IMG/VR virus record: IMGVR_UViG_3300020056_002227
Span: 105,743 to 169,742 of that record
Length of the DNA: 64,000 nucleotides
Strand: one strand, 5' to 3'
Source of the DNA: a virus
The notes under the pieces were generated by a model that saw only the letters and a program-made list of their open reading frames with translations, ran no database searches and was not told where the DNA came from. Each line of letters opens with the position of its first letter. The stretch's first letter is position 1. Made by a program: the position numbers and the translations under genes. Shown here one piece after another: positions 4,372 through 63,999 of this stretch.

Positions 4372-4842
4372 ATGTCATATACAACTAAAATAGATCCAGT
4401 AGACGGTACTACGATTATCGTTACTACCCAGGCTCCGGATGCACTACCAATTGGAAAGACCCTGGAGTTGAGTACAGAATGGCAGGTACTTATTGATGTT
4501 CCAAAATTTGAAGTTCCTGAGCTTGTATTCGGTGGTTCTACCACTATCGAACCTGGAATTGGTGAGGTAATTTCTCCTCTCATTGTTGCAAATAAAACAA
4601 GTAATACTGTTGCAATTGATGTGAGAACGCACCGATTCATAGAGCCGGTGCCAGGCCAAGGAAATGAATTTTATCTTATTAGAAACCTTAGGATACCTGC
4701 TTATGATACCATACCAATTCCGCTTAATGGACAGTTTTTTGCTACAGGTGACACATTAGAGGCCAAGGCCAGTGCAAACTTAGCAATTGACTCAACTATA
4801 TCATATACCTTAGGACAAGCGGAAGAGTACGATGTCGACTAG
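4372..4842 (+). CDS. Hypothetical virion-associated protein (156 aa, beta-rich)
   Basis: ORF tightly packed between two structural genes; it overlaps the start of the next gene. Confidence 0.7.
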   Translation: MSYTTKIDPVDGTTIIVTTQAPDALPIGKTLELSTEWQVLIDVPKFEVPELVFGGSTTIEPGIGEVISPLIVANKTSNTVAIDVRTHRFIEPVPGQGNEFYLIRNLRIPAYDTIPIPLNGQFFATGDTLEAKASANLAIDSTISYTLGQAEEYDVD

Positions 4843-23303: not shown

Positions 23304-23354
23304 AATAAATAGATTAGTAAAAAATTAAACGCCTATCTGGGGAGAGTGAACCGA

Positions 23355-32300: not shown

Positions 32301-33398
32301 GGCAGTGCTACCAATGTAGCATATATGGGTAGAGAAAATGGTAATGCGATCGCTTACTTCTATAACAGAGTATATGGTCGGATTTACTACGATATTGATG
32401 GTGGCTCGAGTTACTATGGTGATTTTGCAGGTACGACTCGAGTAAATCAGCTTACTCCAAACAGAATTAACTCACCATACGCTGGTGGAAACTCTGGTAT
32501 TACAAGAGCTAGTTCACCATACTCATTCGGCTTCCAAGAATCGGGTGGTTGGGGTAGCCCATTTCCTGACTTAGTACTCCAGTATCACACTGGTATATCT
32601 ATGGCAGCTAACCCAAGCTACCAAGGTATTAGATTCTTTAATGACTATAACAGTAGTGCTCTAAGATTCCAGATTAATGGTGGCTCTAGTTATACTTACA
32701 AATATACATGGATGTACACAAACCGAGATAGTGGTATGTACACCAGCGACTCTGACGGTAATGGTGCTCACATCTATCCTAACCGACAGACATCTTATGG
32801 TTCTTGGAACTTCTTAGGAAGCAGAAGTGGTTGGAGAGGTCTTGCATTCTCTGATTCAACATATAGACCTCACATAATGTTTGATGGTAGTTCGAGTGGT
32901 GGTTACTATATTCAGGATCTAGGACGTTGGGTATACTATCATAACCGCGCTAGGAACTGTACAGGCTTTGCTTCATCTTCAACAGTTTCCGGGTATCGTG
33001 TACGTATTAATGGTTCACTCTATTGTAACGGTAACGTTGTTGCTTACTCAGACAGACGTAAGAAAAAGAATATTGTTACTATTGATAATGCTCTTGATAA
33101 AGTATTACAATTACGTGGTGTATACTACGAAAGAATTGAAGATTTAGTTGATGACCGCGATGACCTCTATAAGGGCCGTCAGTTAGGTATGATTGCTCAA
33201 GAAGTAGAAGAAATTGTACCTGAGGTTGTATCATACGCAGAAGAAATTGATGAGTATGCACTTGACTATCCTAAGATGGTCGGTCTACTTGTCGAAGCTC
33301 ATAAGGATCAACAAGAGATTATAAATAGCCAACAAGAAAAGATTGACAAACTCGAAGAAATGGTATATAATATGATGCAAAAAATGGAGAACCTATAA
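23355..33398 (+). CDS. Giant long tail fibre (~3347 aa) with a C-terminal S74 intramolecular chaperone
   Basis: ATG at 23355 follows GGAG (the track's GTG at 23346 overlaps the RBS region). Many F.D.D...YY.DP..TS repeats. C-terminal AYSDRRKKKNI..ALDKVLQLRGVYY..GMIAQEVEEIVPEVV..LDY.KMVGLL is the S74 signature. Confidence 0.9.
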   Translation: MANDKKFIAKNGLLTPQKAIIGSTTDNGVDELQVTGTSNLAGAVTIENATASTISLEVENTGAGGFTPTANIAKFTGDIDSLSIQNVIGGSYRITNPGNNNRIIFYNNTSGIDIQYAGSSRLAITSTGNDFSGLNTTTIDGNRIITVLDQASQGGSFDAATLDQLDSTQFVRSDESDTMNGSYIITGDLTVSGNTTFINTEQLLVADNIFTLNSDFTTGNPTEDAGMEIRRGGQANSSFVWDETNDYFKLISAGTDLGRIITTADEGPGNGFDADTVDGLHGYQFLRSDVDDTANGNITILGGLTVGDGNGPARIDMNGSGQARTIYTNNGEIGFLNSGYNWAVKSDANGDLEVERDVEAGRDVLADGDVTAQNNITATTGNITATAGSISAATTVTAGTDVIGQRFVDADDNAYYADPASNSIFSGLGLDDNLFHNGDTDTRLRFETDHIKLETGGNVRFDVNNSRVLASLDTYVPNLVVNDAIIHNNDTDTRILFTTDVVQIDTGGSTRLQVDNAGVDIFGNLDVTNTATANTVIGLTSMRSPIYYDTDNDSYFGNFAGTSVMNDISIDDYISHNGDADTYFGFVGPDQIRFATGNAQRLYISNSQIESSVYFYAPRFVDLDNNSYYVDPNSTSILSTVNVDDWLQHIGNEDTRIGFPATDTINIQTDGFTRFIANNSQVTVTTDLKVDGNIISGGDGIFDGDVYASKFIDSDDNNYYADPNATSVMKTVGIDDYIVHNGDSDTKIGFLMNDTLQMDAGGTTIFIAQSTAAEYYVDLYGEDAYFRTFYDNDNSAYFLNPAETGVSLNVAGLVRTGNGSAAGPAYSFGSDTNTGMYRKGADQIGFSAGGNEELVVYNNRVEAPGEVRSPIFYDLATPAYYGDFASTSQMNRIDIDDYIRHRGDTNTYMGFDAADSWGVWAGGTKRLGIDTDSADFTVDVYAPKFIDSDNNSYYLDPADTSTSATLNGKVLIGNVSDAARWDDNTGNGGISLMNHGSYASGQNTTVGISGNYAGGYSLMYLNRIDPNTNPFNAGNRYIHFYHDGNQGTNLSGDSSGNLYWLMLAGTSQSYWTQAGSTIFTINDNGNLVVGGSSPTYTDGGDNTPLTAAINPAKLHVNGSIYLNGANDGIIFGRGTASFLRDEELGFGWGGGWYMTDATYLRVRNNKAVYSGGDAYFNRYYDTNATSRWIEPGGGGILAGNFEFAATDTGTSYSTAAIELRESNYTGNGTATPPRISWHWGGVVASQMAIESSGRIVVRNNPGNGYEAFGAGNIYGTKFWDIDNNNFSFEPNVSNAWRLQTPTGYLDFGSMNASYLHFQTDRPAFYFNQPVSFDGNIAGYGGNETASFARYYDSNDTDYWVDPHTFSRMNGINFGIPGNGTNTKGRYLSIEGNTDGSGEGSSRIFFAEHNSTTGSMSAYGMSLGYRGGATSIVGGDGNTWTGLSQINNGEWGLWGHNGSAIGSWAMKGPRDGTYVVASGSFRAPIFYDWTSSSWYVNPDGDSRLNTITLDGNAVQLREPTGNYGSFMVDGGARGGYEGFSIGGRVVFMHNNASASGIYDDVNNQWMARFNLGSNVDLRYAGVVQAETANGYFLANNEIRSPIFRDTTSPTTWFVDPSGTSRVNTLRTNRIYPAYDNDTSIYIDYVGGDYGSLQINGGGKNGWRGLSLLGQFVWMTPGDGARNGIYNDIDNQWQQQWYRGAGSILYYAGGSQFSIENGYALATNQMRAPIYYPPSTTSYYLDLDRGNTNQALRVGGIIERVGFQTSGDGNNNIFNRAQDYSHWIWQTATDWGIFWAGNNNPYRSYFSTSNPNEIVFIGNGNLRASIDLDDGRAHFTGNVSAPDFLLNGGNEDISLNPAYGSGGADLVLFDMTPYFEARVTRVLRGAENNLTGTTSEYVKGDGPFAGSYVLQTSNYRTFYSDYIPVVPGEDLYGEISHRVVSGSGGRLYYGIERFDKDKRPIAGNTGTTYFVAGGSIYTNTTWQTQRAHTTLPTSHTPYNGSDGGGVHWVRIRILINYNSGGALRQIGGIMLKRRNVESNLLVDNIVANDILADDITADNVDAYRFRDRDATGYYVEPANITQSARFRGQTYYGPNATWGAYLTVGGDGRNGYINSGTASVATTNGNLHLDSGSGYNTYINYYDGSNIYFGTGGNATHSVWESNGDLRIGGSGSTAASGFKLHVDGNTYVNGNVRANRFEDTSSPSSRYVDPASTSQINRLNVNEIKSFPSPQYGQLFFDHSGIAYPSGRSQVVGTGLGIYSSYSGGSGNPFTYDITASFNNNGKAFEIAADWINTNRTPLLVRSLRDCCQNWTPWTQIATSGVEFLTGAGIKAPWFADSDNDFYRMDPASTSQINAMNMRGTLNMEFGAQINLRAPGTNNLRGYIQVRDSNDGHLRIATSGGEDIRFMDGGLDGQWNMIIRGDGNTLINNYIDATRFRDRNDPSNYYGDFASTSIMNQVDVNRIRSRNSTGYFWDGNEDLAMYVYGEISNSNYATGNLQPGALNIGRTDRNYRFTGDGGSWAGDIRAGILANCSEYWEFALHDSGRSVESLLYYDTANIHIGRNIGWGTSRVIHPGGTASTIYTDWTNTGYYLNPEGLNDSNINGVNNRTSAMMGMPGHTRNSGYYYRARPRQTSNTDYWTGAFGWGRIDMNQVATWGSGFIDSWSNPPNQPSGTSHWVGAQAFHYRNSNTSGYGWQMVGGPIEGLRFRSSWPSWRSWRNIVVGGVNDGSAAGTIYAPRFTNTTNTGYYGDFDTTSRMNVIDINEGYNYGWWRNRTSGRGLYSQANGRHFYSPGNVYWHIDGRSDVGGLIFYDRYNSSQGSGTGRRGYVYYDGSGFGLLHSGGGWAVRTVSGTTELYGNAYAGTFRANIIYDRDNGDGWYWNGGGTSRSNVTITNTSYFSSNTNRGYAEGYGTRGSALRRISYISMNNGSSAWNSYNYHGIASTNSSNNFADSISINSYNDITMRLDSNSNNTNSYLRIMDNTVGSATNVAYMGRENGNAIAYFYNRVYGRIYYDIDGGSSYYGDFAGTTRVNQLTPNRINSPYAGGNSGITRASSPYSFGFQESGGWGSPFPDLVLQYHTGISMAANPSYQGIRFFNDYNSSALRFQINGGSSYTYKYTWMYTNRDSGMYTSDSDGNGAHIYPNRQTSYGSWNFLGSRSGWRGLAFSDSTYRPHIMFDGSSSGGYYIQDLGRWVYYHNRARNCTGFASSSTVSGYRVRINGSLYCNGNVVAYSDRRKKKNIVTIDNALDKVLQLRGVYYERIEDLVDDRDDLYKGRQLGMIAQEVEEIVPEVVSYAEEIDEYALDYPKMVGLLVEAHKDQQEIINSQQEKIDKLEEMVYNMMQKMENL

Positions 33399-50294: not shown

Positions 50295-52325
50295 ATGGCT
50301 TTTTCCGTAAGTCCTTCCGTAATCGTTCGAGAAGTGGACGCATCGGCCGCGGTACCAGCCATCGCAACACCACCTGCCGCTGTTGCCGGTGTATTTAGAT
50401 GGGGTCCTATTAACGAACCAATTCTATGTTCATCGGAAAATGATCTTGTAAATCGCTTCGGTAAGCCTACCGATGACAATTATGAGACATTCTTTGTTGC
50501 AGCAGATTATCTGTCATATGCAAATGCCCTATGGGTTGCACGTGTAGATAATGGAGCTGAAACAGCAGATGCATCCGACGTTGTACTGCATACTTCTGCA
50601 ACTGCTTACGCTAACACTGCTGCCCCCGGTTACATTGCCGGTCAGACACCAGGTTCCGTAGGTAGTGTTGATATTGCTAATACAACATATGGTGCATTTG
50701 AAGGTCTATATGCAGGTGCTCTTGCGAATGGTATTGAAATTTCGTATGTAAAAGATAGCAGCTATGAGGCAGCACTCTTTGGTGTTGGTGATATTCCTGC
50801 TTCTAACCCTTTTGCAACGGATACCCGCGCGGTTTCTGGTTCAATCGTTGCACCCACAGATCAAACTTTTGCATTTAATACCAACTCTTTCCAGTTTACC
50901 ACATCTAGTAATACTGATTTCTATGATGTTACTGGCATGCCAGGTGATACTCTTGTAATCGGTAATGATTCAGTAGGCTATCAAGAACTGTCCATTTCTA
51001 CTGTAACTCGAGAAGCAAACGAGATTGATTTAGACCCAACTGCAAACACGAATATTGTTGATGGATATTACACATATACATTCACAACGAGTGGTAATTA
51101 CACACTTGCAGAAACCGAACCTAACAGCCTGTCTCTTTCAGTTAAGTGGAAGCATTCGAATCTGTTTGGTAAGGCTCCAGATACTGGTAATTACCACGTT
51201 GCAGTAATCGATTCTACTGGTAGTGTTACTGGTAATCTTGGATCGGCAGTAGAAATTTATGAGAACGTATCTACATCACCGACTGCAACACTTCCTGATG
51301 GTAGAACAAACTACTATAAAGATGTGATTGATAACTTCTCTTCTTGGGTGAAGGTTGCAAATACTGTTCACTTTGAAGCTCAAACGGCATCTGTATATGA
51401 ACTTCTTGAAGGTGGTACTGATGGAACCACAGAGGCAGCAACATCTCTTGCCGCTCTTGCTGGTGGTTACGACCTATTCAAGAACTCTAATGAGATCGAT
51501 ATTTCCTTTGTTCTTCAAGGTAAAGGCGATAACAGTGCTAATCTGGCAAATTACATCATTAGTAATATTGCTGATTACAGAAAAGACTGTGTGGCATTCC
51601 TTTCTCCATCGAAAGAAGCAGTTGTTGATGAATTAAGAACCAATGCTAAGATGACAAATACTATTGCATATCGCAATAAGCTACAGAGTTCTTCTTACTG
51701 GTTCATGGATTCTGGTTACAAGTACAGATACGACAAGTACAATGACAAGTACCGATATGTACCTCTCAACGGCGACATGGCTGGACTTTCATCTAGGGTA
51801 GAACCTTATGAGTCTCCGGCTGGATTTAGAAAGGGCGTTGTGAAAAATGTTATCAAGCTTGCTTTCAATCCAAATAAGGCTCAGAGAGATCAACTTTACA
51901 GCGCAGATATTAACCCTGTAATGTCACAGGTTGGTCAAGGGATTGTCCTCTTTGGTGATAAGACTGGTCTTGGTTCGACTAGTGCTTTCGATAGACTCAA
52001 TGTTCGAAGATTGTTCATTGCTGTTGAGAAGGCTATTGCTAATGCAGCTCAATCTTTCTTGTTTGAATTGAATGATGAATTCACTCAGACACAGTTCAGA
52101 AACATTGTTGAGCCGTTCCTGAGAGATATCCAAGGTAGAAGAGGAATCATCGATTTCAGAGTGGTTTCTGATGCTACCGTAAATACTCCTACAGTAATTG
52201 ATCAGAACAAATTCAGAGCAAATATCTTTATCAAGCCTGCACGATCCATCAACGTCATCGAACTCACGTTTGTGGCTACTAGGAGCGGTGTAGAATTTGA
52301 AGAGATAGTCGGCGCGCTTACATAA
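50295..52325 (+). CDS. gp18: Tail sheath protein gp18
   Basis: SP.V.VREVD; F.WGP; SPAG..G; FGDKT; SAFDRLNVRRLF; FE.ND.FT; IKPARSIN.I.L.FVAT. Confidence 0.98.
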   Translation: MAFSVSPSVIVREVDASAAVPAIATPPAAVAGVFRWGPINEPILCSSENDLVNRFGKPTDDNYETFFVAADYLSYANALWVARVDNGAETADASDVVLHTSATAYANTAAPGYIAGQTPGSVGSVDIANTTYGAFEGLYAGALANGIEISYVKDSSYEAALFGVGDIPASNPFATDTRAVSGSIVAPTDQTFAFNTNSFQFTTSSNTDFYDVTGMPGDTLVIGNDSVGYQELSISTVTREANEIDLDPTANTNIVDGYYTYTFTTSGNYTLAETEPNSLSLSVKWKHSNLFGKAPDTGNYHVAVIDSTGSVTGNLGSAVEIYENVSTSPTATLPDGRTNYYKDVIDNFSSWVKVANTVHFEAQTASVYELLEGGTDGTTEAATSLAALAGGYDLFKNSNEIDISFVLQGKGDNSANLANYIISNIADYRKDCVAFLSPSKEAVVDELRTNAKMTNTIAYRNKLQSSSYWFMDSGYKYRYDKYNDKYRYVPLNGDMAGLSSRVEPYESPAGFRKGVVKNVIKLAFNPNKAQRDQLYSADINPVMSQVGQGIVLFGDKTGLGSTSAFDRLNVRRLFIAVEKAIANAAQSFLFELNDEFTQTQFRNIVEPFLRDIQGRRGIIDFRVVSDATVNTPTVIDQNKFRANIFIKPARSINVIELTFVATRSGVEFEEIVGALT

Positions 52326-52913: not shown

Positions 52914-54419
52914 ATGAAGATTTTTGGCTTTGAGATTAAACGAGAAGCAGAAGAGGCCAATGAGGTACCGGTCTCTTTTGCTGAACCTCTCAACGATGAC
53001 GGTGCGATTACTGTTGGTAGTGCCCTTGGTGGGTTCTATAATACATTAATCGATTTAGAGGGCTCGGCTAAAACCGAGTCCGAACTCGTCACGAAATATA
53101 GGGGTATGGCCATGCAGCCTGAGATTGCTCAGGCTATTGATGAGGTTGTCAACGAAGCAATCAATGTTGACACGCACGAAAAAGTTGTCGATATTGTACT
53201 AGAAGATACTGAACTACCAGACAAAGTAAAGAAAATGGTAGCTGAGGAATTTGATAATGTCCTCGGCTTGTTAGATTTTACTAATAATGCATATGATATG
53301 TTCAGCAAATTTTATGTTGATGGCAGAATGAACTATCATATCATCATTGACGATGATAATTTAAAGAAAGGGATCACAGAACTTAGATACGTAGATCCTC
53401 GTAAAATTAAATTGATTCGTGAGGTGGATAAAAAGGGCAAGGACGAATGGTCTGGAATGCCCACAAAAAAGGTGAAGAACGAATACTATTTGTATTCAGA
53501 TAATGGGTTTGGCAATGGCCCAGGTGATTCTTCTACCGGATATAAGATTTCGAAAGATTCTATTGCCAGGATTACATCGGGCTTGATGAATGAAAACAAT
53601 TCATTGGTCCTTTCATATTTGCATCCTTCTATCAAGCCTCTTAATCAATTGAGAATGTTAGAAGATGCAACGGTCATTTACACACTGACACGAGCACCAG
53701 AAAGACGTATTTTCTATATTGATGTAGGTAACTTGCCAAAGAATAAAGCAGAACAGTATCTCCGTGATATGATGGTTCGGCACAAGAACAAGTTACAATA
53801 CAATGCATCTACTGGTGAAATTGCAGATTCTCGTAAGATGATGACAATGACTGAAGATTTTTGGTTCCCTCGCCGAGGTGGTGAGAGATCCACAGAAGTA
53901 GATACACTTGCCGGTGGTAGTGCACAGGGCTTGAGTACAGATGAAAATTTACAGTATTTCCAACGTAAATTGTATAAGGCGTTGAGAGTACCTTTAACCA
54001 GATTGGAACCAGAGACAATGGTTTCATTTGGTCGTGTATCTGAGATTACACGAGATGAATTGAAATTCAGTAAATTCATTCGAAGGCTCAGAGCAAGATT
54101 TTCTTGGTTCTTCAATCTGGTATTGGAAAAACAGCTTGTCTTAAAAGGTGTAATGTCACCGGAAGAATTTGACCAGATCAGAAATAAAATTCGTTATGAT
54201 TTTATTAGAGACAACTATTTTGAAGAACTAAAAGAGGCCGAGATTCTTAGAGAAAGAATGACTACTCTTAGAGAAATGGAAGAATCGGTCGGTGTTTATT
54301 ATTCTCGTCAATGGGTTGTCCGTAATGTTCTTCAGATGAGTGAAGAAGAATTTGAAGAAATTAGGGATCAGATCGAAGCAGAAAAAGAGATGTTCCCCGA
54401 CGAAGATGAAGACATTTAA
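52914..54419 (+). CDS. gp20: Portal protein gp20
   Basis: NQLRMLEDA.VIY...RAPERRIFYIDVGNLPK.KAEQY; EDFW.PRR.G; EITRDELKF.KF. Confidence 0.98.
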   Translation: MKIFGFEIKREAEEANEVPVSFAEPLNDDGAITVGSALGGFYNTLIDLEGSAKTESELVTKYRGMAMQPEIAQAIDEVVNEAINVDTHEKVVDIVLEDTELPDKVKKMVAEEFDNVLGLLDFTNNAYDMFSKFYVDGRMNYHIIIDDDNLKKGITELRYVDPRKIKLIREVDKKGKDEWSGMPTKKVKNEYYLYSDNGFGNGPGDSSTGYKISKDSIARITSGLMNENNSLVLSYLHPSIKPLNQLRMLEDATVIYTLTRAPERRIFYIDVGNLPKNKAEQYLRDMMVRHKNKLQYNASTGEIADSRKMMTMTEDFWFPRRGGERSTEVDTLAGGSAQGLSTDENLQYFQRKLYKALRVPLTRLEPETMVSFGRVSEITRDELKFSKFIRRLRARFSWFFNLVLEKQLVLKGVMSPEEFDQIRNKIRYDFIRDNYFEELKEAEILRERMTTLREMEESVGVYYSRQWVVRNVLQMSEEEFEEIRDQIEAEKEMFPDEDEDI

Positions 54420-56085: not shown

Positions 56086-56781
56086 ATGAAGCTTATTACA
56101 GAAATTACCGAAAATTGTGAGATCCTTTCTGAAATCAACGAAGAAACTGGCAAGAAGTCTTTCTTCATTGAGGGAATTTTCATGCAGGGAAATCTCAAGA
56201 ATCGTAATGGCCGTATCTATCCCAGTGAAGTCCTTGAAAATGAAATGAAGCGTTATCAAAAGGAATTCATCGATACGAAGAGAGCTTTAGGTGAACTTGG
56301 TCATCCAGATGGACCACAAATCAATGGTGAGAGAGTATCTCATTTGATTACTGAGATGAAGAGAGATGGTGATAATTTTTATGGTAAAGCCAAAATTCTT
56401 GGTACACCTATGGGTGAAATCGTAAAGACATTTCTTGATGAAGGTGTGAAGATTGGTGTTTCTACCAGGGGTCTGGGTTCGGTGAAGGCAAAGAATGGAG
56501 TAATGGAAGTACAAAAAGACTTCCATCTGGCTACCGTTGACATCGTTACCGATCCTTCTGCTCCTAATGCTTTTGTAAATGGCATTATGGAAAATGTAGA
56601 ATACTATTACGATCTTGCATCTAATGCATGGCTTCCTGCTCAACAGCAAGAGGAAGTGGCTGAAGTGGTTGAGCAAATCACAAAGCAAGTGCATAAGAAG
56701 TATAATAGAATTGTGAACAGAGTTGATGAGGAAACTGCATCGAAATTGTTCCAAAAATTCATTAGAACGCTTCAAAAGTAA
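56086..56781 (+). CDS. gp21: Prohead protease gp21
   Basis: IEGIFMQ...KNRNGRIYP; ALGELGHP; GVSTRGLGS; DIVTDPSAP.AFV. Confidence 0.97.
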   Translation: MKLITEITENCEILSEINEETGKKSFFIEGIFMQGNLKNRNGRIYPSEVLENEMKRYQKEFIDTKRALGELGHPDGPQINGERVSHLITEMKRDGDNFYGKAKILGTPMGEIVKTFLDEGVKIGVSTRGLGSVKAKNGVMEVQKDFHLATVDIVTDPSAPNAFVNGIMENVEYYYDLASNAWLPAQQQEEVAEVVEQITKQVHKKYNRIVNRVDEETASKLFQKFIRTLQK

Positions 56782-56795: not shown

Positions 56796-56838
56796 GAGTT
56801 TGCAACAAGTTAAATTGTTACATAAAAGGAGACTAAAT

Positions 56839-57744
56839 ATGGCAGATGATCAAAGCAAGGTTGTTGCTGAAGAGGAAACTCTATCAGCCGCACCAGAAAC
56901 TGTTGAAGAGCAGGTTGAGTCTGTTGAGGAAGTCGCACAGGAAGAGGAAGTAACTACGGAAGTAGTTGAAGAGGTTGTGGAAGAGACAGAGGTTGTTACC
57001 GAAGTCGATCCTACAATTGCTTCTATCTTTGAAGGCGTCGACCTTTCAGATGAATTCAAAAACAAGGTATCAGTTGTTTTTGACGCCGCAGTCAATGAGC
57101 AGGTTACAGAGAAAGTTAAGGCAATCGAAACTGATCTGAACGAGAAACTCGAAGCAGAGCTTCAAGAATCTCTGACAGCAAAAGTAGACGAGATTGTTGA
57201 AAATCTTGACAAGTATCTTGACTATGTTGTTGAAGAGTGGATGTCGGAAAACGAAATTGCTATCGAGGCCGGTATTAAGGTTGAAATGGCAGAATCTCTA
57301 ATGACTGGTCTTAAGGATCTATTCGAAGAGCACAACATCGATGTAAATGATGAGACTGTTGATGTGGTAACAGGCTTGGAAGAGCAGGTTGCAGAAGCAG
57401 AAGCTAAGAGAAATGAACTCGTGAATGAGAACATTGCTTTGGCACAAGAAATTACCAATATGAAGGCTGAAAGAGTCTTTGAGGAAATTACTGAAGGTCT
57501 GACTGCTACTCAACGCGAAAGACTAGTTGTTCTTTCTGAGAAACTAGATCGAAGTGATCTGGAAGATTACTCTGCTAATCTCCAGACCATTAAAGAATCT
57601 TTCTTTACAGAAACAGCTGTGAAAAAGGATGAGGTGATTGAGGAAGAAATCATTACGGAAGAGGAAGTAATTAAGCGTCCTGTTTCTGATTATTCTTCGG
57701 TCAATGCTCTTGTAGAGGCACTCAACGCAAGAAAAAGCAACTAA
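56839..57744 (+). CDS. gp22: Prohead core scaffolding protein gp22
   Basis: ATG at 56839 after AAGGAG. LS.EFK.K...F.AAV; D.YL.YVVEEW..EN..AIE.G.K.E..ES...GLK.LF.EH. Confidence 0.95.
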   Translation: MADDQSKVVAEEETLSAAPETVEEQVESVEEVAQEEEVTTEVVEEVVEETEVVTEVDPTIASIFEGVDLSDEFKNKVSVVFDAAVNEQVTEKVKAIETDLNEKLEAELQESLTAKVDEIVENLDKYLDYVVEEWMSENEIAIEAGIKVEMAESLMTGLKDLFEEHNIDVNDETVDVVTGLEEQVAEAEAKRNELVNENIALAQEITNMKAERVFEEITEGLTATQRERLVVLSEKLDRSDLEDYSANLQTIKESFFTETAVKKDEVIEEEIITEEEVIKRPVSDYSSVNALVEALNARKSN

Positions 57745-57806: not shown

Positions 57807-59141
57807 ATGTCACAGACAAACTATCAGAAGCTTGTGGAAAAGTGGGGGCCAATCCTAGAGCACGAATCTTTTTCACCTATTGCTGATCAACACAGAAAGT
57901 CGGTAACCGCGACTATCTTGGAGAACACAGAACGTGCGCTGCAAGAATCCGGTGATCTTTCTGCAAACATGAGCTCTCTTCTTTCTGAAGCAGCTCCTGT
58001 CAACGCTGCTGGCGCTGACGGTTTCACATCTGGTGCGACTGACGCTGGTCCGGTTGCTGGATACGATCCAGTCCTGATCTCTCTCGTGCGTCGTGCGATG
58101 CCCAACCTGATTGCATATGATATTTGTGGTGTCCAGCCTATGACTGGTCCTACAGGTCTCATCTTCGCAATGCGGTCTCGTAAGGGTACTCAATCTGGTG
58201 CAGAAACTGGTTACGGTGAAGCAGATACCACTCATTCTGGTGTAGGCACTCAAACTGGCACGATCCCTGTAGCAGATGCTGCTAATACTACTCTCTTTGA
58301 GACTGGTACTGGTATGGCAACAAACGTTGCTGAAGCTCTCGGTGATGGTGTTGGTGCAGACTTCGCAGAAATGGCCTTCTCTATTGAGAAAGTAACTGTT
58401 GCTGCTAAGACACGTGCACTGAAGGCTGAGTACACCACTGAACTGGCTCAAGACCTGAAAGCTGTTCACGGTCTGGATGCTGAAACAGAACTGGCTAACA
58501 TTCTCCAGTCTGAGATCTTGACTGAAATCAACCGTGAAGTTGTACGTACTATCTACACCACTGCTGAAGTTGGTGCTGGAAATACTGCTGCCTCTGGTGT
58601 TTTCGATCTCGACGTTGATGCTAACGGCCGTTGGTCTGTTGAGAAGTTCAAGGGTCTGATGTTCCAGGTTGAGCAAGAAGCTAACGCTATTGCTAAGGGA
58701 ACTCGTCGCGGTAAGGGTAACATTGTTATCTGTTCTTCTGATGTGGCTTCTGCTCTTCAGATGGCCGGTGTACTTGATCACACTCCTGCACTCAATGCCA
58801 ATGCTTTGGATGTTGATGATACTGGTAACACCTTCGCTGGTGTTCTGAACGGTCGCTTCCGTGTATACATCGATCCATATGCTGGTGGTAACTACATGGT
58901 TGTTGGTTACAAAGGTTCTTCTGCCTTTGATGCTGGTCTCTTCTACTGCCCATACGTACCTCTTCAGATGGTTCGTGCAGTTGGCGAGAACACTTTCCAG
59001 CCCAAGATCGGATTCAAGACTCGCTACGGCATGGTTGCAAACCCATTTGCTCAAGGCGATGCCTCTTCTCAAGGTCTTGGTGCTCTTACAGCCAACGTCA
59101 ACAAGTACTACAGAAAAGTACGAGTTACAAACTTGTTCTAA
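57807..59141 (+). CDS. gp23: Major capsid protein gp23
   Basis: DPVLISLVRRAMPNLIAYDICGVQPMTGPTGLIFAMR; ELAQDLKAVHGLDAE.EL; FQPKIGFKTRYG. Confidence 0.99.
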   Translation: MSQTNYQKLVEKWGPILEHESFSPIADQHRKSVTATILENTERALQESGDLSANMSSLLSEAAPVNAAGADGFTSGATDAGPVAGYDPVLISLVRRAMPNLIAYDICGVQPMTGPTGLIFAMRSRKGTQSGAETGYGEADTTHSGVGTQTGTIPVADAANTTLFETGTGMATNVAEALGDGVGADFAEMAFSIEKVTVAAKTRALKAEYTTELAQDLKAVHGLDAETELANILQSEILTEINREVVRTIYTTAEVGAGNTAASGVFDLDVDANGRWSVEKFKGLMFQVEQEANAIAKGTRRGKGNIVICSSDVASALQMAGVLDHTPALNANALDVDDTGNTFAGVLNGRFRVYIDPYAGGNYMVVGYKGSSAFDAGLFYCPYVPLQMVRAVGENTFQPKIGFKTRYGMVANPFAQGDASSQGLGALTANVNKYYRKVRVTNLF

Positions 59142-59171: not shown

Positions 59172-59200
59172 AAGGGAGATCTTCGGATCTCCCTTTTTTT
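59172..59200 (+). terminator. Rho-independent terminator with a cUUCGg tetraloop after gp23
   Basis: AAGGGAGATC-TTCG-GATCTCCCTT followed by a T-run; typical of T4-like phages. Confidence 0.95.
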
Positions 59201-59220
59201 ATGAGCTGTATTTGAGTAAA

Positions 59221-59264: not shown

Positions 59265-59362
59265 CTTTTGTTCCTCAATGATTAAATAAAGATATGAAAA
59301 CAAAGAACCCCCGGCCGCTAACGCGACGGGGATTTTTTTTGGACAAAAAGAGGAAACAAAGT

Positions 59363-62152
59363 ATGAAATTGAAACAACTTTTTGCAATGACCTTGGTACT
59401 AATACCATTACTAGGTCTAGCAGAAGAAATCCACTATGATAGAAATCAACTCCCACAGCTAAACATTGCCATACTAGAACAAAGTGAATTTGCAGATCGT
59501 ATTGAGGTTACAACTGTACCTGTTGCAGAATTGAAGCCAGTACAGACTCAACGTGTAAAGGATCTGGTAAAACACGAAAAAAGATTAATCAAGGTTCAAC
59601 AAGATACCTATAGACCGCTAGTAATCGATCATGATTACTACATTATTGATGGCCACCATCGGTATGATGCACTTACCGAGATGGGTGTAGAAAAGGCCAG
59701 AGTTGTTATAGTACACGCAAATATTGCTGATGTGGTAGAAGCGTTTCCTCAATACCGAGATGATACACCTACATACGAACCCATGGAAGAAGTTCGAGTA
59801 GTAGGCTCTCGAGCAAATCTAATCAATGCCGTCGATAAGCAAATGATGGCAGATAACATTATCTCAGTTGTCGATTCAGATGCACTAGGTAATTTCCCCG
59901 ATGCAACTGCAGCAGATGCTGTTCGGCGACTCTCTGGTATCAATGTAGAGAATGATCAAGGTGAAGGTCGGTATATTACCATTCGTGGTTTATCCTCTGA
60001 CCTGAATGCAGTTTCTGTAAATGGTGCTTCTATGGTTGCACCAGAGAATGGCCGATCTGTTATCATGGATGGAATTCCAACTGAATTGCTTGACAGCATC
60101 ACAGTGGCAAAATCTTTGGTACCCGAAATGGATTCTGATAGTATTGGTGGCCGTGTAGAATTCAATACAAAGAGAGCAACCGAACTTGAAGATCGTTTAT
60201 TCAATGTAAAGCTTGCTACCAAATGGAGCGAGAAGGATGATAAGAAGATGCCTAATGCATCTGTCATCTATGGTGATTATATTACCGATAATCTTGCACA
60301 CATTGTAGGTCTCACTTATTCTTCTCGCAGAATCATCTCGCATAATAATGAGACTGGTTTTGGTTGGGAAGATGGTTTAATGAATGACGATTATGAAATG
60401 CGTTGGTATGATGTTGAGCGCGAGCGATATGGATTTAGTTATGATATTGCTTACGATGCAGGAACAACTTTATACTATGCAAACATTCTTCATAACCAAT
60501 ACGATGAGACAGAAACACGTTTTAAAAATGAATATGGTAAGATTAAGAACACCGGAGTAGTCTTTGATAATGCTGTAGAATCTTCTCGTGTTCGGCATGA
60601 CGTGGAGACAAAACAACGGTATGAAACTAGAACAATCAGTGCAGCCTCTCTTGGATTCGAGCATTTGGGTGCCGTTACGATTGATGGTCAACTGTCTTTC
60701 TCCAGAGCAGAAGAGGATGATTCTGATAACGCCGATGTTACCTTCCGTAATTACGACAAAGATTTCGGTGCTCTTTTCGATTGGAGCAATCCACGACTCC
60801 CCACAGTCACTCCATATGATCTCACTCTAAGAGATCCAGCTAATCTTGAATTTGATGCGTTCGAAACATGGTCGAATGTGAGTCAAGATGAAGAGGTTGC
60901 CGCACAGTTGAATTTCGAATTCGATACAGGCATTGGCATGATCAAGACTGGTGTGAAATATCGAGGTCGAGAAAAGGTCGTCGATGACTACATCATCGGC
61001 TACACTTGGGATCGTACCCTTGCAGATTTCGAATCAGAATCCCCTGATTGGATTTGGGATCAAACATTTGGTTCTCACCTTTCTGGATCTGATACATATG
61101 CACTACTTGATTCCGTCGGGCAAATGGAAGTCGATTTTGAAGATGATTTGAGCAGAGATTTTTCTACCAAAGAAAATATCATGGCTGCATATATTCAAGA
61201 CACGATTGACTTAGAAAATGCTGTTATCATTTTCGGTGTTCGGTACGAAGCCACTGATTTCAAATCTATTGCATATGATCAGAATGGTGATCTCGTATAT
61301 GCAGAAAATGATTACGATTTTGTTGCTCCAAACCTGACGGTTAAGTATTTTTTAAATGATAATATTCAGGTTCGTGGCGCATTGTGGCGTGGACTCTCTA
61401 GACCTGGTTTCAAAGAGACTGCTCCAAAAACATCTGTTGATGTAGACACCTCTGGTGATACTACTGGATCAGTTGGTAACCCAGATCTCTTACCATATGA
61501 AGCAGATAACTTTGATCTGTCTATCGAATATTATGGTGAAGGGATGACCTTTGCATCGATTGGTTTCTTCTATAAGAATATTGCTAATGCCATCTACCCA
61601 ACATATCAACTGAATGGTACATTTAATGGCATTATATTCAACGATGGAGTAGAGACATGGATTAATGCTGATGATTCTACTGTAAGAGGTCTCGAGGTCA
61701 ACCTACAGTACGGCTGGGAGAATGGACTCTACGTTGCTCTAAATGGTACGCTCACTGACAGTGAATCCGTGTTCTCGTTCGATAATGATCAGACATTCTC
61801 TACCCCTTTCCGTAAATTAGCTGACAAGGCTGCAAACTTGAGTTTGGGCTATGAGACAGATAAGATCGATATTCGACTTGCTGGGACATATAGAGATGAA
61901 TATCTTGATTGGCTTGCAGATGAAGATGGAGATATCACGAGTGTGAGTGATAATAACTCCAGATTTGTTGCACCTCATATGCAGATCGACTTGACTGCAA
62001 AATATATCGTGAATGAATCAATGACGCTTCGATTTGAAGCAATTAACATCAATGATCGCGATGAGTATTACTACTGGGGTAATGAGAATCAACTCTCTCA
62101 GTTCGATAACTACGGTGTATCATATGTCGTGGGGATTGACTTCAGACTCTAA
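59363..62152 (+). CDS. TonB-dependent receptor with a signal peptide and an N-terminal ParB/Srx-like domain
   Basis: ATG at 59363 after GAGG. Signal peptide MKLKQLFAMTLVLIPLLGLA; PLVID..YYIIDGHHRY.A (ParB/Srx); EEVRVVG TonB box; plug motif AADAVRRLSGI...DQGEGRYITIRGL...GGRVEF; barrel motifs GNPDL.P and NINDR..Y. Confidence 0.9.
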   Translation: MKLKQLFAMTLVLIPLLGLAEEIHYDRNQLPQLNIAILEQSEFADRIEVTTVPVAELKPVQTQRVKDLVKHEKRLIKVQQDTYRPLVIDHDYYIIDGHHRYDALTEMGVEKARVVIVHANIADVVEAFPQYRDDTPTYEPMEEVRVVGSRANLINAVDKQMMADNIISVVDSDALGNFPDATAADAVRRLSGINVENDQGEGRYITIRGLSSDLNAVSVNGASMVAPENGRSVIMDGIPTELLDSITVAKSLVPEMDSDSIGGRVEFNTKRATELEDRLFNVKLATKWSEKDDKKMPNASVIYGDYITDNLAHIVGLTYSSRRIISHNNETGFGWEDGLMNDDYEMRWYDVERERYGFSYDIAYDAGTTLYYANILHNQYDETETRFKNEYGKIKNTGVVFDNAVESSRVRHDVETKQRYETRTISAASLGFEHLGAVTIDGQLSFSRAEEDDSDNADVTFRNYDKDFGALFDWSNPRLPTVTPYDLTLRDPANLEFDAFETWSNVSQDEEVAAQLNFEFDTGIGMIKTGVKYRGREKVVDDYIIGYTWDRTLADFESESPDWIWDQTFGSHLSGSDTYALLDSVGQMEVDFEDDLSRDFSTKENIMAAYIQDTIDLENAVIIFGVRYEATDFKSIAYDQNGDLVYAENDYDFVAPNLTVKYFLNDNIQVRGALWRGLSRPGFKETAPKTSVDVDTSGDTTGSVGNPDLLPYEADNFDLSIEYYGEGMTFASIGFFYKNIANAIYPTYQLNGTFNGIIFNDGVETWINADDSTVRGLEVNLQYGWENGLYVALNGTLTDSESVFSFDNDQTFSTPFRKLADKAANLSLGYETDKIDIRLAGTYRDEYLDWLADEDGDITSVSDNNSRFVAPHMQIDLTAKYIVNESMTLRFEAININDRDEYYYWGNENQLSQFDNYGVSYVVGIDFRL

Positions 62153-63798
62153 AAAAGACAAATGTCGGCTGGGGCATTTGTCCAGATGCTCCAGACCGGC
62201 TCATCTTCCACATCAATATTACGAGAGAATTGAATTTGATGTTCTTTCTCACTTAATTGACTCATCAGCCATCTTGCTCTTAGGAGAGAATCTACTGAAT
62301 CCGTGGGTGGTGGCTGATTTTCTATTTCGTCTAAGCAGAAGCAACCACCATTAGTTCCAATGGAAACACTCTGTCCTGTTTCTGGTATTTCACAGGTAAC
62401 ACTTCTATCTGAAAATCTGCCTGTTGCTAAGTCAGCATATGACATAATCGTACCGTAACCACCGTATATACCTTCATATTCTGGATTATCGGCCTGAGCA
62501 TTATAACCTGGTATATTGTATCCATAAGAATATTCAAACAAGCCTGGTTCATTTGCATCTTCCCATTCGTGCTGTAAGCCTAATAAATGACCCGCCTCAT
62601 GTATGAATGTCTCATGAGCCCTTTCATAATATCTAGTATTTGCTGCCTCTTGAAACGTGCTATTGTGGAAGCATTGAGTGATACCTCTACTCTTATCTAT
62701 CCCTCTCGTAGCGTCCAAGTGAGCGACCCCACAAGCGACAGGGTCATTGTGTTTCTTCTTGAATAAAAACGCTAGGTCAGCATTAGCTTCACGTTGCCAT
62801 CTATCAATGTTCTGAAATTCATATTTACCATTGAAAAATGCCCGATATTGCCTATACAGGTCACCTTCAGCAACATCAACCATTACTATATCTGCTACTC
62901 GTAAAAGAACATATGTACCGCTTACCATAAACATATGATTTGCCTCGTAGAATTGCTTATCTACAAATTCTTCTACAGTCATACCATCACGTTCTTCTTC
63001 AGTCATATTCGTATCAAACACTACCAACATATCAATAATCGCGCGACCCGCGTGCTCTTCTACTGGCTGATATGGATACGATACATCGGTTTTTTGTTTA
63101 ATACCATCACAGGTCATATAATCATAGCGACCGTCACCAGTATCAGTTCGAACTGTCGGGCAGTCTGTTGGTTTTTCCATTTGAACAAAACAAGATGGAT
63201 CGAGGTGTACAGTACGTTCTGTATATGTGCCACCTTCTCCGTCTGCATAGTCTTGCAGTCTATCTTCTGGTAATAGATGATTGATGTTTTGCCAGTGGGG
63301 ATCGTATTCTTCTGGTGTCAATGATCCAGCACAATATGAGTCACCTAGTAGTGTACCTTCTTCGGGCGGTGGTTCCCAGCCACAATCTGCTGAATCAGTC
63401 TCTACCACCTCTGTATAAGAACCACCTTCGCCGTCAGCAAAATCCTGTACCTTATCAAAATCACCAAGATTTTGTATCGTATTGAGTAGGTCTAAAAATT
63501 GTTGTTCTGTACTGTTTGCACAGTAGGGATCGGAGAGGGGTGTACCAAACAGTGGTGGTTTTTCATACCCACAAGCTTCAGAATTTGGAGTTTCTTCAGT
63601 TGTTGATCCACCATTACCATCAGCAATGACTTGAATAAGAGTAGTACCGTCACACGATTCTTCTAAAACGGTTCCAGCATCGGGGTATGAGGGCGCGGGT
63701 GTTACAACAATTGGTTCGGTGGGTTCAGGTTCATTTGTACTGCCTCCACCACAAGCAGTAAGAAGGAAAATCAGTAGACTCAGGGTAATTTGTTTCAT
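62149..63798 (-). CDS. Lipoprotein zinc metalloprotease (metzincin, reprolysin/M12-like)
   Basis: ATG at 63798 after GAGGT. Lipobox LLTA-C-GGG; three ADGxGG..T...C repeats; zinc motif HEAGHLLGLQH and Met-turn GTIMSY. Confidence 0.85.
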   Translation of the reverse strand: MKQITLSLLIFLLTACGGGSTNEPEPTEPIVVTPAPSYPDAGTVLEESCDGTTLIQVIADGNGGSTTEETPNSEACGYEKPPLFGTPLSDPYCANSTEQQFLDLLNTIQNLGDFDKVQDFADGEGGSYTEVVETDSADCGWEPPPEEGTLLGDSYCAGSLTPEEYDPHWQNINHLLPEDRLQDYADGEGGTYTERTVHLDPSCFVQMEKPTDCPTVRTDTGDGRYDYMTCDGIKQKTDVSYPYQPVEEHAGRAIIDMLVVFDTNMTEEERDGMTVEEFVDKQFYEANHMFMVSGTYVLLRVADIVMVDVAEGDLYRQYRAFFNGKYEFQNIDRWQREANADLAFLFKKKHNDPVACGVAHLDATRGIDKSRGITQCFHNSTFQEAANTRYYERAHETFIHEAGHLLGLQHEWEDANEPGLFEYSYGYNIPGYNAQADNPEYEGIYGGYGTIMSYADLATGRFSDRSVTCEIPETGQSVSIGTNGGCFCLDEIENQPPPTDSVDSLLRARWLMSQLSEKEHQIQFSRNIDVEDEPVWSIWTNAPADICLF

Positions 63799-63858
63799 AT
63801 GTACCTCATGTTTAAACATATCAGTACATGATACCACCATGAATCTACTGAATTTCTT

Positions 63859-63999
63859 TTATTTATTCTTACCCTGCCAAGGTTGTGTGCAATCCATTTT
63901 ATGGTTTCCTTTCATGCCACACTGAGGACAAGGCTTTGCAAAAATACGATCCCAATTACTCTCGTATACTTTACGATCTACCTTTATTGGTCTAGGTTT
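63859..63999 (-). CDS. Partial small protein (start outside the window) with a NWDRIF motif and CxxC-H-C putative zinc ligands
   Basis: Translated by hand: KPRPIKVDRKVYESNWDRIFAKPCPQCGMKGNHKMDCTQPWQGKNK-stop. Confidence 0.55.
   Translation of the reverse strand, partial: KPRPIKVDRKVYESNWDRIFAKPCPQCGMKGNHKMDCTQPWQGKNK

What the first reader, a model, noticed from the sequence alone, without database searches (positions are those of the whole stretch)
59363..62152. Phage-encoded TonB-dependent receptor carrying a periplasmic ParB/Srx-like domain
Seen: signal peptide, then a ParB/sulfiredoxin-like domain (IIDGHHRY, about 59500-59740), then TonB box, plug and barrel, all in one intact frame directly after the gp23 terminator. 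Established: TBDR N-terminal extensions are normally STN or carboxypeptidase-regulatory-like domains, and ParB/Srx folds bind NTPs or phosphate groups (CTPase, kinase, nuclease) and are normally cytoplasmic. From recall, DQGEGR-type plug receptors often neighbour phytase or phosphatase genes. Inference: an auxiliary transporter-enzyme fusion that imports and processes an organophosphate or nucleotide to feed phage DNA synthesis. Alternatively it acts as a decoy or replacement receptor. A full TBDR in a lytic phage is rare and this fusion is unfamiliar to me.
Basis: partly seen in the sequence, partly recalled or inferred. Interest (0 to 1): 0.8.

Follow-up and report, generated by a model that had tools for sequence, protein, structure and literature searches.

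The report
Phage TonB receptor with periplasmic ParB/Srx domain
An uncultured marine T4-like phage carries an intact outer-membrane nutrient importer copied from the phytate/phosphorus-scavenging receptors of marine Gammaproteobacteria, with a phage-type ParB/sulfiredoxin-fold domain added on its periplasmic end. The same gene recurs in many ocean phages, so it looks like a real and previously undescribed way for phages to re-equip the host envelope.

Summary
ORF 59363-62152 (929 aa) directly follows gp23 in a 169.7-kb T4-superfamily viral contig. It encodes, in order, a signal peptide, a 116-aa ParB/Srx-fold domain, a TonB box, a plug and a complete barrel (TIGR01782).

It is not an assembly chimera. 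The gp21-gp22-gp23-receptor order recurs in seven independent viral contigs. The same fusion sits at two other positions in other phages, flanked by phage genes on both sides. All three parts are under purifying selection.

Cellular homologues (SAR92/Porticoccaceae, SAR86 and others, 43-57% identity) lack the N-domain. In 71 of 80 genomes they are directly followed by a beta-propeller phytase, and many carry Pho-box-like sites. The phage clade has no phytase and no Pho box.

The fusion is mostly viral. One bacterial chromosome carries it, and the same MAG also has it split into a secreted 140-aa domain gene plus a receptor gene.

Relatives of the domain in other phage proteins are fused to nucleotidase, HD, nucleotidyltransferase and Cu/Zn-SOD domains.

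Best reading: an auxiliary organophosphate/nucleotide uptake device. Function is untested. First readers of this scan noted the same architecture in two other genomes.

The parts
57807..59141 (+). gp23 major capsid protein, the upstream neighbour
   Evidence: Pfam Gp23 E 9.4e-145; phrog_138
59172..59205 (+). intrinsic terminator after gp23 (10-bp stem plus T-run)
   Evidence: conserved in related loci
59282..59288 (+). TTAAATA, one mismatch from the ATAAATA late-promoter-like motif that precedes most genes of the window
   Evidence: L003/L005 have exact ATAAATA at the aligned place
59301..59341 (+). stable hairpin plus U8 in the receptor's 5' leader, terminator-like, 9 nt before the GAGG ribosome-binding site (22 nt before the ATG)
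   Evidence: -18.1 kcal/mol, z -2.7; hairpin plus T-run kept with different stem sequences in L003/L005, L004/L008 and L007
59363..62152 (+). TonB-dependent receptor CDS, 929 aa plus stop (P0002)
59363..59425 (+). Sec-type signal peptide (residues 1-21, read by eye)
   Evidence: homologues have equivalent N-termini
59429..59776 (+). ParB/Srx-fold N-terminal domain (residues 23-138), predicted periplasmic
59648..59662 (+). invariant DGHHR motif (position of ParB box II; identical to the DGHHR of free serine kinase SerK)
59783..59806 (+). TonB-box region MEEVRVVG in a flexible linker
   Evidence: aligned with EEVVVxG of bacterial homologues; pLDDT below 50 at 134-147 in the full model
59846..60151 (+). 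plug domain (residues 162-263) with the ENDQGEGRY motif
   Evidence: Pfam PF07715, 51.7 bits; invariant columns
60173..62149 (+). beta-barrel (about residues 271-929)
   Evidence: PF00593 118 bits; AF2 barrel pLDDT about 85-93 and Foldseek matches to solved TonB-dependent transporters, E 1e-28
62149..63798 (-). convergent lipoprotein metzincin (lipobox LLTAC; HEAGHLLGLQH zinc site); its stop codon overlaps the receptor's stop
   Evidence: Reprolysin_3/4/5 hits; translation; sequence at the stops; conserved next to the receptor in L002 (98%) and L003 (67%)
63860..63866 (-). ATAAATA late-promoter-like motif upstream of the metzincin

Best explanation
This is a genuine auxiliary gene of an uncultured marine T4-superfamily phage. 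SHOWN: it is an intact TonB-dependent outer-membrane transporter of subfamily TIGR01782. On the tree its plug and barrel form a clade sister to the receptors that marine Gammaproteobacteria (SAR92/Porticoccaceae, with K189A, Luminiphilus and SAR86 further out) encode immediately upstream of a beta-propeller phytase, often behind a Pho-box-like site. SHOWN: the phage clade lost the phytase partner. It carries a 116-aa ParB/Srx-fold domain between the signal peptide and the TonB box. That domain belongs to a mainly viral subfamily. INFERRED: after Sec export and BAM insertion into the infected cell's outer membrane, the conserved TonB box lets the host's TonB energise the protein, and the ParB/Srx domain hangs in the periplasm on a flexible linker. 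INFERRED: the transporter brings in a phosphorylated organic compound (phytate-like organophosphate or nucleotide). The N-domain keeps the phosphate-binding DGHHR and PVQxxRV motifs. It would capture or process the phosphoryl compound in the periplasm in place of the missing phytase, feeding phosphorus to phage DNA synthesis. Expression appears to come from the phage's own late-type promoter, not from host PhoB.
For: Phage origin and integrity:
- The window is the last 64 kb of a 169,742-bp viral contig with gp18, gp20, gp21, gp22 and gp23.
- The gp21-gp22-gp23-receptor order recurs in seven IMG/VR contigs, with gp23 at 79-99.6% identity and the receptor at 67-99%.
- The same fusion (66% identity) lies between gp2/gp3/baseplate genes and gp48/gp53/gp5 in 116-167-kb TARA contigs.
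- In a third position it lies among ClpP, PhoH, clamp-loader and T4-spanin genes.
- pN is far below pS in the N-domain, plug and barrel.

Host-gene origin:
- 71 of 80 genome loci have a phytase directly downstream.
- Pho-box score reaches 11/14 or more in 20 of 72 bacterial upstream regions, against 6 of 360 control windows.
- The phage clade is sister to SAR92/Porticoccaceae in the tree.

N-domain:
- It is a clean insertion.
- Invariant motifs are LPQL, PVQxxRV, YRPL and DGHHR.
- Profile hit to ParB-N 5k5a, E 2.8e-5. ParB/Srx fold by Foldseek.
- Secreted stand-alone forms exist, as does a split gene pair of secreted domain plus receptor.
- Viral relatives of the domain are fused to NT5C, HD_4, CTP_transf_like and Sod_Cu.

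No phytase, TonB or second copy of the domain was found in the phage contig.
Against:
- The substrate of even the bacterial receptor-phytase pairs is inferred from gene adjacency only (PMC3400609).
- The phage gene has no Pho box above background. It appears to be a late gene behind a terminator-like leader hairpin, which is not the obvious timing for a nutrient importer.
- Its neighbours differ between phages: a metzincin here, a sulfatase in L012. The substrate may therefore have changed.
- Some members of the clade, including one phage (P0055), do without the N-domain.
- The periplasm has no known NTP pool, so a kinase or NTPase role is problematic.
- The contig is only 77% complete, so absence of phytase or PstS is not proof.
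Confidence: 0.45

Rival explanations
1. Same transporter, different cargo. After leaving the phytase cassette the receptor changed substrate, for example to metal chelates/iron, peptides released by the neighbouring lipoprotein metzincin, or sulfated compounds where a sulfatase is adjacent. The N-domain would serve that new function.
For: No member of the N-domain clade examined keeps a phytase. The neighbours are a secreted metzincin here and in L002/L003, and a sulfatase in L012/L013. TIGR01782-type receptors carry many kinds of dissolved organic matter (PMC3400609).
Against: The neighbours are not conserved across the phage clade; L004 lacks the metzincin. About 150 columns are invariant across an alignment of phage-clade and bacterial receptors, including the plug motif ENDQGEGRY. 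The N-domain's viral relatives are fused mainly to nucleotide/phosphate enzymes.
Confidence: 0.2
2. Receptor replacement or decoy. The phage, or its competitors, adsorbs to the host's receptor of this family. The phage-encoded copy replaces or dilutes it to exclude superinfection or stop progeny being lost on debris, while the N-domain modulates it.
For: TonB-dependent receptors are common phage receptors (general knowledge). The gene appears to be late-expressed and is paired with a late-promoter lipoprotein protease that could clip surface proteins. The N-domain and barrel have different histories in L003 and L004, which suggests ongoing recombination.
Against: Strong purifying selection on the plug and TonB box (dN/dS 0.02-0.06) argues that transport itself is kept. 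A decoy would not need a periplasmic domain. No evidence identifies this phage's receptor.
Confidence: 0.15
3. Signalling or gating module. Like the STN domain of FecA-type transducers, the N-domain sits N-terminal to the TonB box. It would report receptor occupancy to a periplasmic or inner-membrane partner, or gate access to the TonB box in response to a nucleotide-like ligand.
For: Its position relative to the TonB box is the same as that of STN extensions. ParB/Srx domains act as ligand-driven switches in ParB, Noc and PadC (the structures matched).
Against: No sigma/anti-sigma pair or other conserved partner gene lies next to the fused receptors. Stand-alone secreted copies exist away from any receptor.
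Confidence: 0.1
4. Artefact: bacterial DNA joined to the end of a phage contig by mis-assembly, or a dead passenger gene.
For: The gene lies within 4.7 kb of the contig end, and both it and its neighbour look 'bacterial'.
Against: The junction with gp23 recurs in seven other viral contigs that have diverged down to 79% gp23 identity. Other phages carry the gene flanked by phage genes on both sides. The frame is intact and pN is far below pS. GC content of 0.41-0.45 is in line with the window.
Confidence: 0.02

Closest known systems
Receptor plus beta-propeller phytase gene pairs of aquatic Gammaproteobacteria and Alphaproteobacteria (TIGR01782 'TonB-Xanth-Caul' receptors; adjacency noted in Tang et al. 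2012, PMC3400609)
   Same: Plug and barrel are homologous over their whole length (43-57% identity). The TonB box and the ENDQGEGRY plug motif are the same. The phage clade is sister to SAR92/Porticoccaceae members.
   Different: No phytase partner, no Pho-box-like site, an extra ParB/Srx domain, and encoded by lytic-type phages.
Phosphate-acquisition auxiliary genes of marine phages (pstS, phoA, phoH of cyanomyoviruses; from my own knowledge)
   Same: A host-derived envelope or periplasmic nutrient-scavenging gene carried by a T4-type marine phage.
   Different: Those are periplasmic binding proteins or enzymes, and some are PhoB-regulated. This is a whole outer-membrane transporter with no Pho box, and no pstS was found in this contig.
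Previously reported phage-borne TonB-dependent receptors: SusC-like gene of marine megaphage Mar_Mega_1 (PMC9723777); receptors in phages of ammonia oxidisers (bioRxiv 10.64898/2026.05.02.722434)
   Same: A complete TonB-dependent receptor annotated in a phage genome and read as an auxiliary uptake gene.
   Different: Different receptor families (SusC, siderophore/haem types) and different phage types. The passages I read mention no ParB/Srx extension and no link to the phytase cassette.
TonB-dependent transducers (FecA, FpvA) with an N-terminal STN signalling domain
   Same: A folded periplasmic domain placed between the signal peptide and the TonB box.
   Different: The fold is ParB/Srx, not STN. 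No sigma/anti-sigma partner genes.
ParB/Srx-fold enzymes and switches: free serine kinase SerK (5x0b), SbnI, sulfiredoxin, ParB/Noc CTPases, pNOB8 ParB-N
   Same: Same fold (Foldseek prob 1.0, TM about 0.5). The DGHHR motif is identical to SerK's. A box-I-like PVQxxRV motif is present.
   Different: Only the about 115-aa core is present. There is no HTH or dimerisation domain and no catalytic Cys of Srx. The domain is exported to the periplasm, whereas, to my knowledge, all characterised members are cytoplasmic.

Membership tests
TonB-dependent receptor, subfamily TIGR01782 (TonB-Xanth-Caul) | Whole-length match above the curated cut-off | tested here: met
   443 bits against a cut-off of 310; residues 141-928 on model positions 1-867 of 868
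TonB-dependent receptor, subfamily TIGR01782 (TonB-Xanth-Caul) | Plug domain and beta-barrel | tested here: met
   PF07715 51.7 bits and PF00593 118 bits; AF2 model pLDDT 82 with Foldseek matches to solved transporters, E 1e-28
TonB-dependent receptor, subfamily TIGR01782 (TonB-Xanth-Caul) | Signal peptide and TonB box | tested here: met
   Read by eye: MKLK plus hydrophobic core plus GLA|EE. MEEVRVVG aligns with EEVVVxG of bacterial homologues; E143, V146 and G148 are invariant. No signal-peptide predictor was available.
TonB-dependent receptor, subfamily TIGR01782 (TonB-Xanth-Caul) | TonB-dependent transport of a substrate | not testable with these tools
   Needs uptake assays
ParB/Srx fold superfamily | Sequence match to a family model | tested here: inconclusive
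   Pfam ParBc_2 scores 21.7 bits, below the 23.6 cut-off. A profile of 30 homologues hits ParB-N 5k5a at E 2.8e-5. PHROG ParB-like families match at 2e-6 to 5e-4.
ParB/Srx fold superfamily | Three-dimensional fold | tested here: met
   AF2 pLDDT 85, pTM 0.77. All listed PDB matches with E <= 0.001 are ParB, Noc, SerK, Srx or ParB-like proteins (1vk1, 2hwj). ESM Atlas TM 0.73-0.78 to ParBc_2 and viral clusters.
ParB/Srx fold superfamily | Phosphate-binding loop (box II position) conserved | tested here: met
   DGHHR is invariant in 30 homologues and identical to SerK's motif
ParB partition proteins proper | HTH DNA-binding domain and C-terminal dimerisation domain | tested here: not met
   The domain is only about 116 aa and is followed directly by the TonB box and plug
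Sulfiredoxin | Catalytic cysteine in the GCHR motif | tested here: not met
   The motif is DGHHR, and residues 22-140 contain no Cys
Pho-regulated receptor-phytase cassette | Beta-propeller phytase gene adjacent | tested here: not met
   No PF02333 in the phage contig or in phage loci. Present in 71 of 80 cellular homologue loci.
Pho-regulated receptor-phytase cassette | Pho box upstream | tested here: not met
   Best score is 9-10 of 14 in the nine phage-locus upstream regions, which is background. It is 11 or more in 20 of 72 bacterial loci, against 6 of 360 controls. Only an E. coli-type consensus was tried.
TonB-dependent transducer (STN-type) | STN signalling domain N-terminal to the TonB box | tested here: not met
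   No STN hit in Pfam; the fold is ParB/Srx
Phage auxiliary metabolic gene | Host-derived gene flanked by phage genes, conserved among phages, under purifying selection | tested here: met

The most novel reading that the evidence does not exclude
A viral ParB/Srx-fold domain works outside the cytoplasm, as the ligand-capturing or phosphoryl-processing partner tethered to a TonB-dependent transporter, and functionally replaces the phytase of the ancestral host cassette. That would be the first periplasmic member of the ParB/Srx superfamily with a transport-coupled role. It would also show that widespread ocean phages rebuild the host outer membrane to scavenge organic phosphorus or nucleotides.
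Probability: 0.25. Interest if true: 0.85.

Novelty: new variant of a known kind. Interest (0 to 1): 0.72.

Why it matters
Phage auxiliary genes for phosphorus are known mainly as periplasmic binding proteins and phosphatases of cyanophages. Here a whole energy-coupled outer-membrane transporter is carried by several lineages of abundant ocean T4-type phages of heterotrophic bacteria, at three genome positions.

This points to viral control over the uptake of dissolved organic phosphorus, or another scarce compound, in SAR92-like bacteria.

The N-terminal extension is a domain class (ParB/Srx) whose characterised members are, to my knowledge, all cytoplasmic. Its export, its stand-alone secreted forms and a split/fused gene pair give a directly testable handle on a new biochemical setting for that fold. 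They also bear on the unresolved question of what the receptor-phytase systems actually transport.

Tried and rejected
Independent contigs were used instead.
- Rfam on the leader and intergenic region: only sub-threshold chance hits.
- ESM Atlas search by features for the N-domain: no usable hit. The fold-based Atlas search did work.
- Sequence search of the barrel against the PDB: no match at E <= 1e-5, so there is no close solved structure.
- Pho box (E. coli-type consensus) upstream of the phage genes: background scores. An 11-bp periodic CTTAAC-like repeat seen by eye in the intergenic alignment was not tested statistically and is not claimed.
- Own contig searched for phytase, TonB_C, a second N-domain copy, PstS and psbA: none found. 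The contig is 77% complete.
- 'The fusion is exclusive to phages' is rejected. G001:C7 is a bacterial chromosome carrying it.
- Literature searches for this architecture or for this receptor family in phages found only unrelated phage receptors.
Full report
**What is there**

The window is the last 64 kb of a 169,742-bp linear IMG/VR viral contig (CheckV completeness 77%). It is a T4-superfamily structural region:
- tail sheath, 50295-52322
- portal gp20, 52914-54416
- prohead protease gp21, 56086-56778
- scaffold gp22, 56800-57741
- major capsid gp23, 57807-59141

The portal is at most 55% identical to any isolate. The best matches are Sinorhizobium phages phiM12/phiM7, then Stenotrophomonas DLP_6 and cyanomyoviruses. 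No psbA is present. This is therefore an uncultured, probably non-cyanobacterial, T4-type phage.

After the gp23 terminator (59172-59205) comes a single open frame. Its credible start is ATG 59363, 9 nt after GAGG.

The 929-aa product (P0002) has these parts:
- a Sec-type signal peptide by eye (residues 1-21)
- a 116-aa N-domain (23-138)
- a TonB-box region MEEVRVVG (141-148)
- a plug (Pfam 162-263)
- a barrel

NCBIfam places residues 141-928 in TIGR01782 at 443 bits against a cut-off of 310. The AF2 model of the whole protein has pLDDT 82. It shows a confident N-domain, a disordered linker containing the TonB box, and a barrel that matches solved TonB-dependent transporters.

**Not an artefact**

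- Seven other IMG/VR contigs carry the same gp21-gp22-gp23-receptor order. gp23 identity runs from 99.6% down to 79%, and receptor identity from 99% down to 67%.
- A 66%-identical copy of the fusion lies between gp2/gp3/baseplate genes and gp48/gp53/gp5 in 116-167-kb TARA and other contigs. It was seen on 23 contigs.
- 61-65%-identical copies lie in a third setting, among ClpP, PhoH, clamp loader, T4 spanin, a UDP-glucose-dehydrogenase-like gene and, in one case, a sulfatase.
- About 50 clusters at 90% identity carry the N-domain.
- Among phage orthologues pN is far below pS in all three parts. dN/dS is about 0.02-0.06 for plug and barrel, and about 0.16-0.28 for the N-domain where dS is not saturated.

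**Where the transporter came from**

- Homologues without the N-domain (about 820 aa) occur in marine Gammaproteobacteria. These are SAR92/Porticoccaceae including HTCC2207 (55-57% identity), the K189A clade, Luminiphilus, Pseudohongiella and SAR86 (43-49%).
- In three bacterial contigs examined gene by gene, the next gene is a beta-propeller phytase.
- A tblastn of three phytases against the 80 best genome loci finds one directly downstream in 71. Of the nine exceptions, three belong to the N-domain clade, two end at the contig edge and four are the most distant.
- An E. coli-type Pho-box pattern scores 11/14 or more in 20 of 72 bacterial upstream regions, against 6 of 360 control windows.
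- The receptor-phytase pairing and the idea that phytate is the substrate are in the literature (PMC3400609).
- In a FastTree of 54 sequences, all N-domain receptors form one clade (local support 100) that is sister to the SAR92/Porticoccaceae receptors. The clade also includes a few receptors without the domain. This is a quick tree, so deep branches are provisional.
- One domain-less member (P0055) is encoded in a different phage, with DnaB, primase, PolA and RNR. It nests among fused forms, which suggests secondary loss.

**The fusion is not strictly viral**

- One locus (L026; 62% identity, 933 aa) lies on a clearly bacterial contig. That contig carries transketolase, MetK, AhcY, PGK, rib genes and glyA, with an ABC-F gene and a lambda-P-like gene beyond the receptor.
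- Another contig of the same MAG has the two parts as separate genes. A 140-aa secreted N-domain protein is followed by a receptor with its own signal peptide.
- A stand-alone secreted 155-aa form also exists next to a gene whose product I read by eye as an ETF:quinone oxidoreductase, away from any receptor.
- The MAG has no detectable phytase.
- L027 (receptor 64% identical, no N-domain) is bacterial by its neighbours and also lacks a phytase; L028 carries a near-identical receptor and likewise shows no phytase, but its neighbours were not examined.

**The N-domain**

- It is a clean insertion between the signal peptide and the TonB box.
- Its invariant motifs are LPQL, PVQxxRV, YRPL and DGHHR.
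- Single-sequence matches are marginal. Pfam ParBc_2 is just under its cut-off. PDB hits to SerK, pNOB8 ParB-N, 1vk1, SbnI and Srx have E 0.01-0.8.
- A 30-sequence profile reaches pNOB8 ParB-N at E 2.8e-5.
- The AF2 model (pLDDT 85) finds only ParB/Srx structures at the top of the PDB search.
- The DGHHR motif is the same as in free serine kinase SerK and occupies the place of ParB box II. From established knowledge of the fold, that is the phosphate-binding loop.
- An exhaustive HMMER search finds 199 representative proteins with this subfamily.
- Sampled members are marine phage proteins without signal peptides. Some are fused to Cu/Zn superoxide dismutase and sit behind giant 1450-2400-aa ORFs.
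- The fold-based Atlas search adds viral clusters fused to NT5C nucleotidase, HD_4 and cytidylyltransferase-like domains, plus small bacterial ParBc_2 proteins.
- BFVD matches are ParB/Srx proteins of large myoviruses.
- The receptor therefore acquired a domain typical of phages, most of whose fusion partners handle nucleotides or phosphate esters.

**Regulation**

- ATAAATA is not over-represented in the window overall (20 found, 19 expected).
- By my reading, 15 of its 20 occurrences lie 11-124 nt upstream of a same-strand ORF start. These include gp18 to gp23 and the metzincin. It is probably the late promoter.
- The receptor has TTAAATA at 59282-59288. L003/L005 have the exact motif at the aligned place.
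- Between that motif and the ribosome-binding site lies a stable hairpin followed by U8 (59301-59341; -18.1 kcal/mol). L003/L005, L004/L008 and L007 also have a hairpin plus T-run there, with other stem sequences.
- No Pho box above background precedes any phage copy.

**Interpretation**

Shown:
- The gene is phage-borne, intact and under selection.
- It is homologous to the phytase-linked receptors of marine Gammaproteobacteria.
- It carries an exported ParB/Srx-fold domain.
- It has lost the phytase partner.

Inferred:
- It is inserted into the host outer membrane and driven by host TonB.
- It imports an organophosphate or nucleotide-like compound.
- The N-domain binds or processes that compound in the periplasm.

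I put this reading at about 0.45. The rivals are a changed substrate (0.2), receptor replacement or decoy (0.15), a signalling or gating module (0.1) and artefact (0.02).

**Comparison and novelty**

- Phage-borne TonB-dependent receptors have been reported: SusC-like in megaphage Mar_Mega_1 (PMC9723777), and siderophore/haem types in phages of ammonia oxidisers (bioRxiv 10.64898/2026.05.02.722434).
- I found no report of this receptor family in phages, of its spread among T4-type marine phages, or of a ParB/Srx extension on any TonB-dependent receptor.
- First readers of this scan noted the same architecture on two other genomes. Those notes are unchecked.
- I rate it a new variant of known kinds (phage auxiliary uptake genes; receptors with N-terminal extensions), with a real chance of new biochemistry.

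Noticed in passing
window 62149-63866 (minus strand): Lipoprotein metzincin (lipobox LLTAC, HEAGHLLGLQH) convergent on the receptor. The two stop codons overlap and there is no terminator between the genes. An ATAAATA late-type motif lies upstream of the metzincin. It is conserved beside the receptor in L002 (98%) and L003 (67%) but absent from L004. The weak NCBIfam hit is to Mep72-type metzincins.
   Followed up: partly
window 59301-59341; hairpin plus T-run also in L004 (about 9954-9978) and L007 (about 5470-5498): A terminator-like hairpin plus U-run sits inside the receptor's 5' leader, between the late-promoter-like motif and the ribosome-binding site. It is kept with different stem sequences in diverged phages. 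It could be an attenuator that throttles expression of an outer-membrane protein, or the end of a tiny RNA. Rfam gives nothing.
   Followed up: partly
L003 versus L004 receptor genes: Mosaic history. The barrels of L003 and L004 are nearly identical (pN 0.014) but their N-domains differ strongly (pN 0.244). L003's N-domain is closer to the window's. This suggests recombination between the domain and the transporter among co-occurring phages.
   Followed up: no
L107 (G001:C179) 747-1169 and 1444-2427; upstream minus-strand ORF 1-438: Split version of the fusion: a secreted 140-aa ParB/Srx protein followed by a separate receptor gene. A PAP2-type phosphatase-like ORF (PSGH motif) lies divergently upstream.
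   Followed up: partly
L024/L025 8001-10202; L022 4964-6631: Marine phage proteins without signal peptides carry the same ParB/Srx subfamily, some fused behind a Cu/Zn superoxide dismutase domain. They are encoded right after giant 1450-2411-aa ORFs and near a weak Mtd_N-hit ORF I take for a tail fibre. They may be virion or ejected proteins.
   Followed up: partly
L012/L013 12855-14129: In another phage lineage the fused receptor is directly followed by a sulfatase (PF00884) instead of a metzincin.
   Followed up: no
window 23346-33398 and 4832-10285: Two very large fibre-like proteins (3350 aa and 1817 aa) end in a Peptidase_S74 intramolecular chaperone domain. The second has nine collagen-repeat stretches. 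Three further ORFs of 1049-1533 aa have no Pfam match.
   Followed up: partly
window, whole: By my reading, 15 of the 20 ATAAATA motifs lie 11-124 nt upstream of same-strand ORF starts, although the total count is at chance level. This is probably the phage's late promoter.
   Followed up: partly
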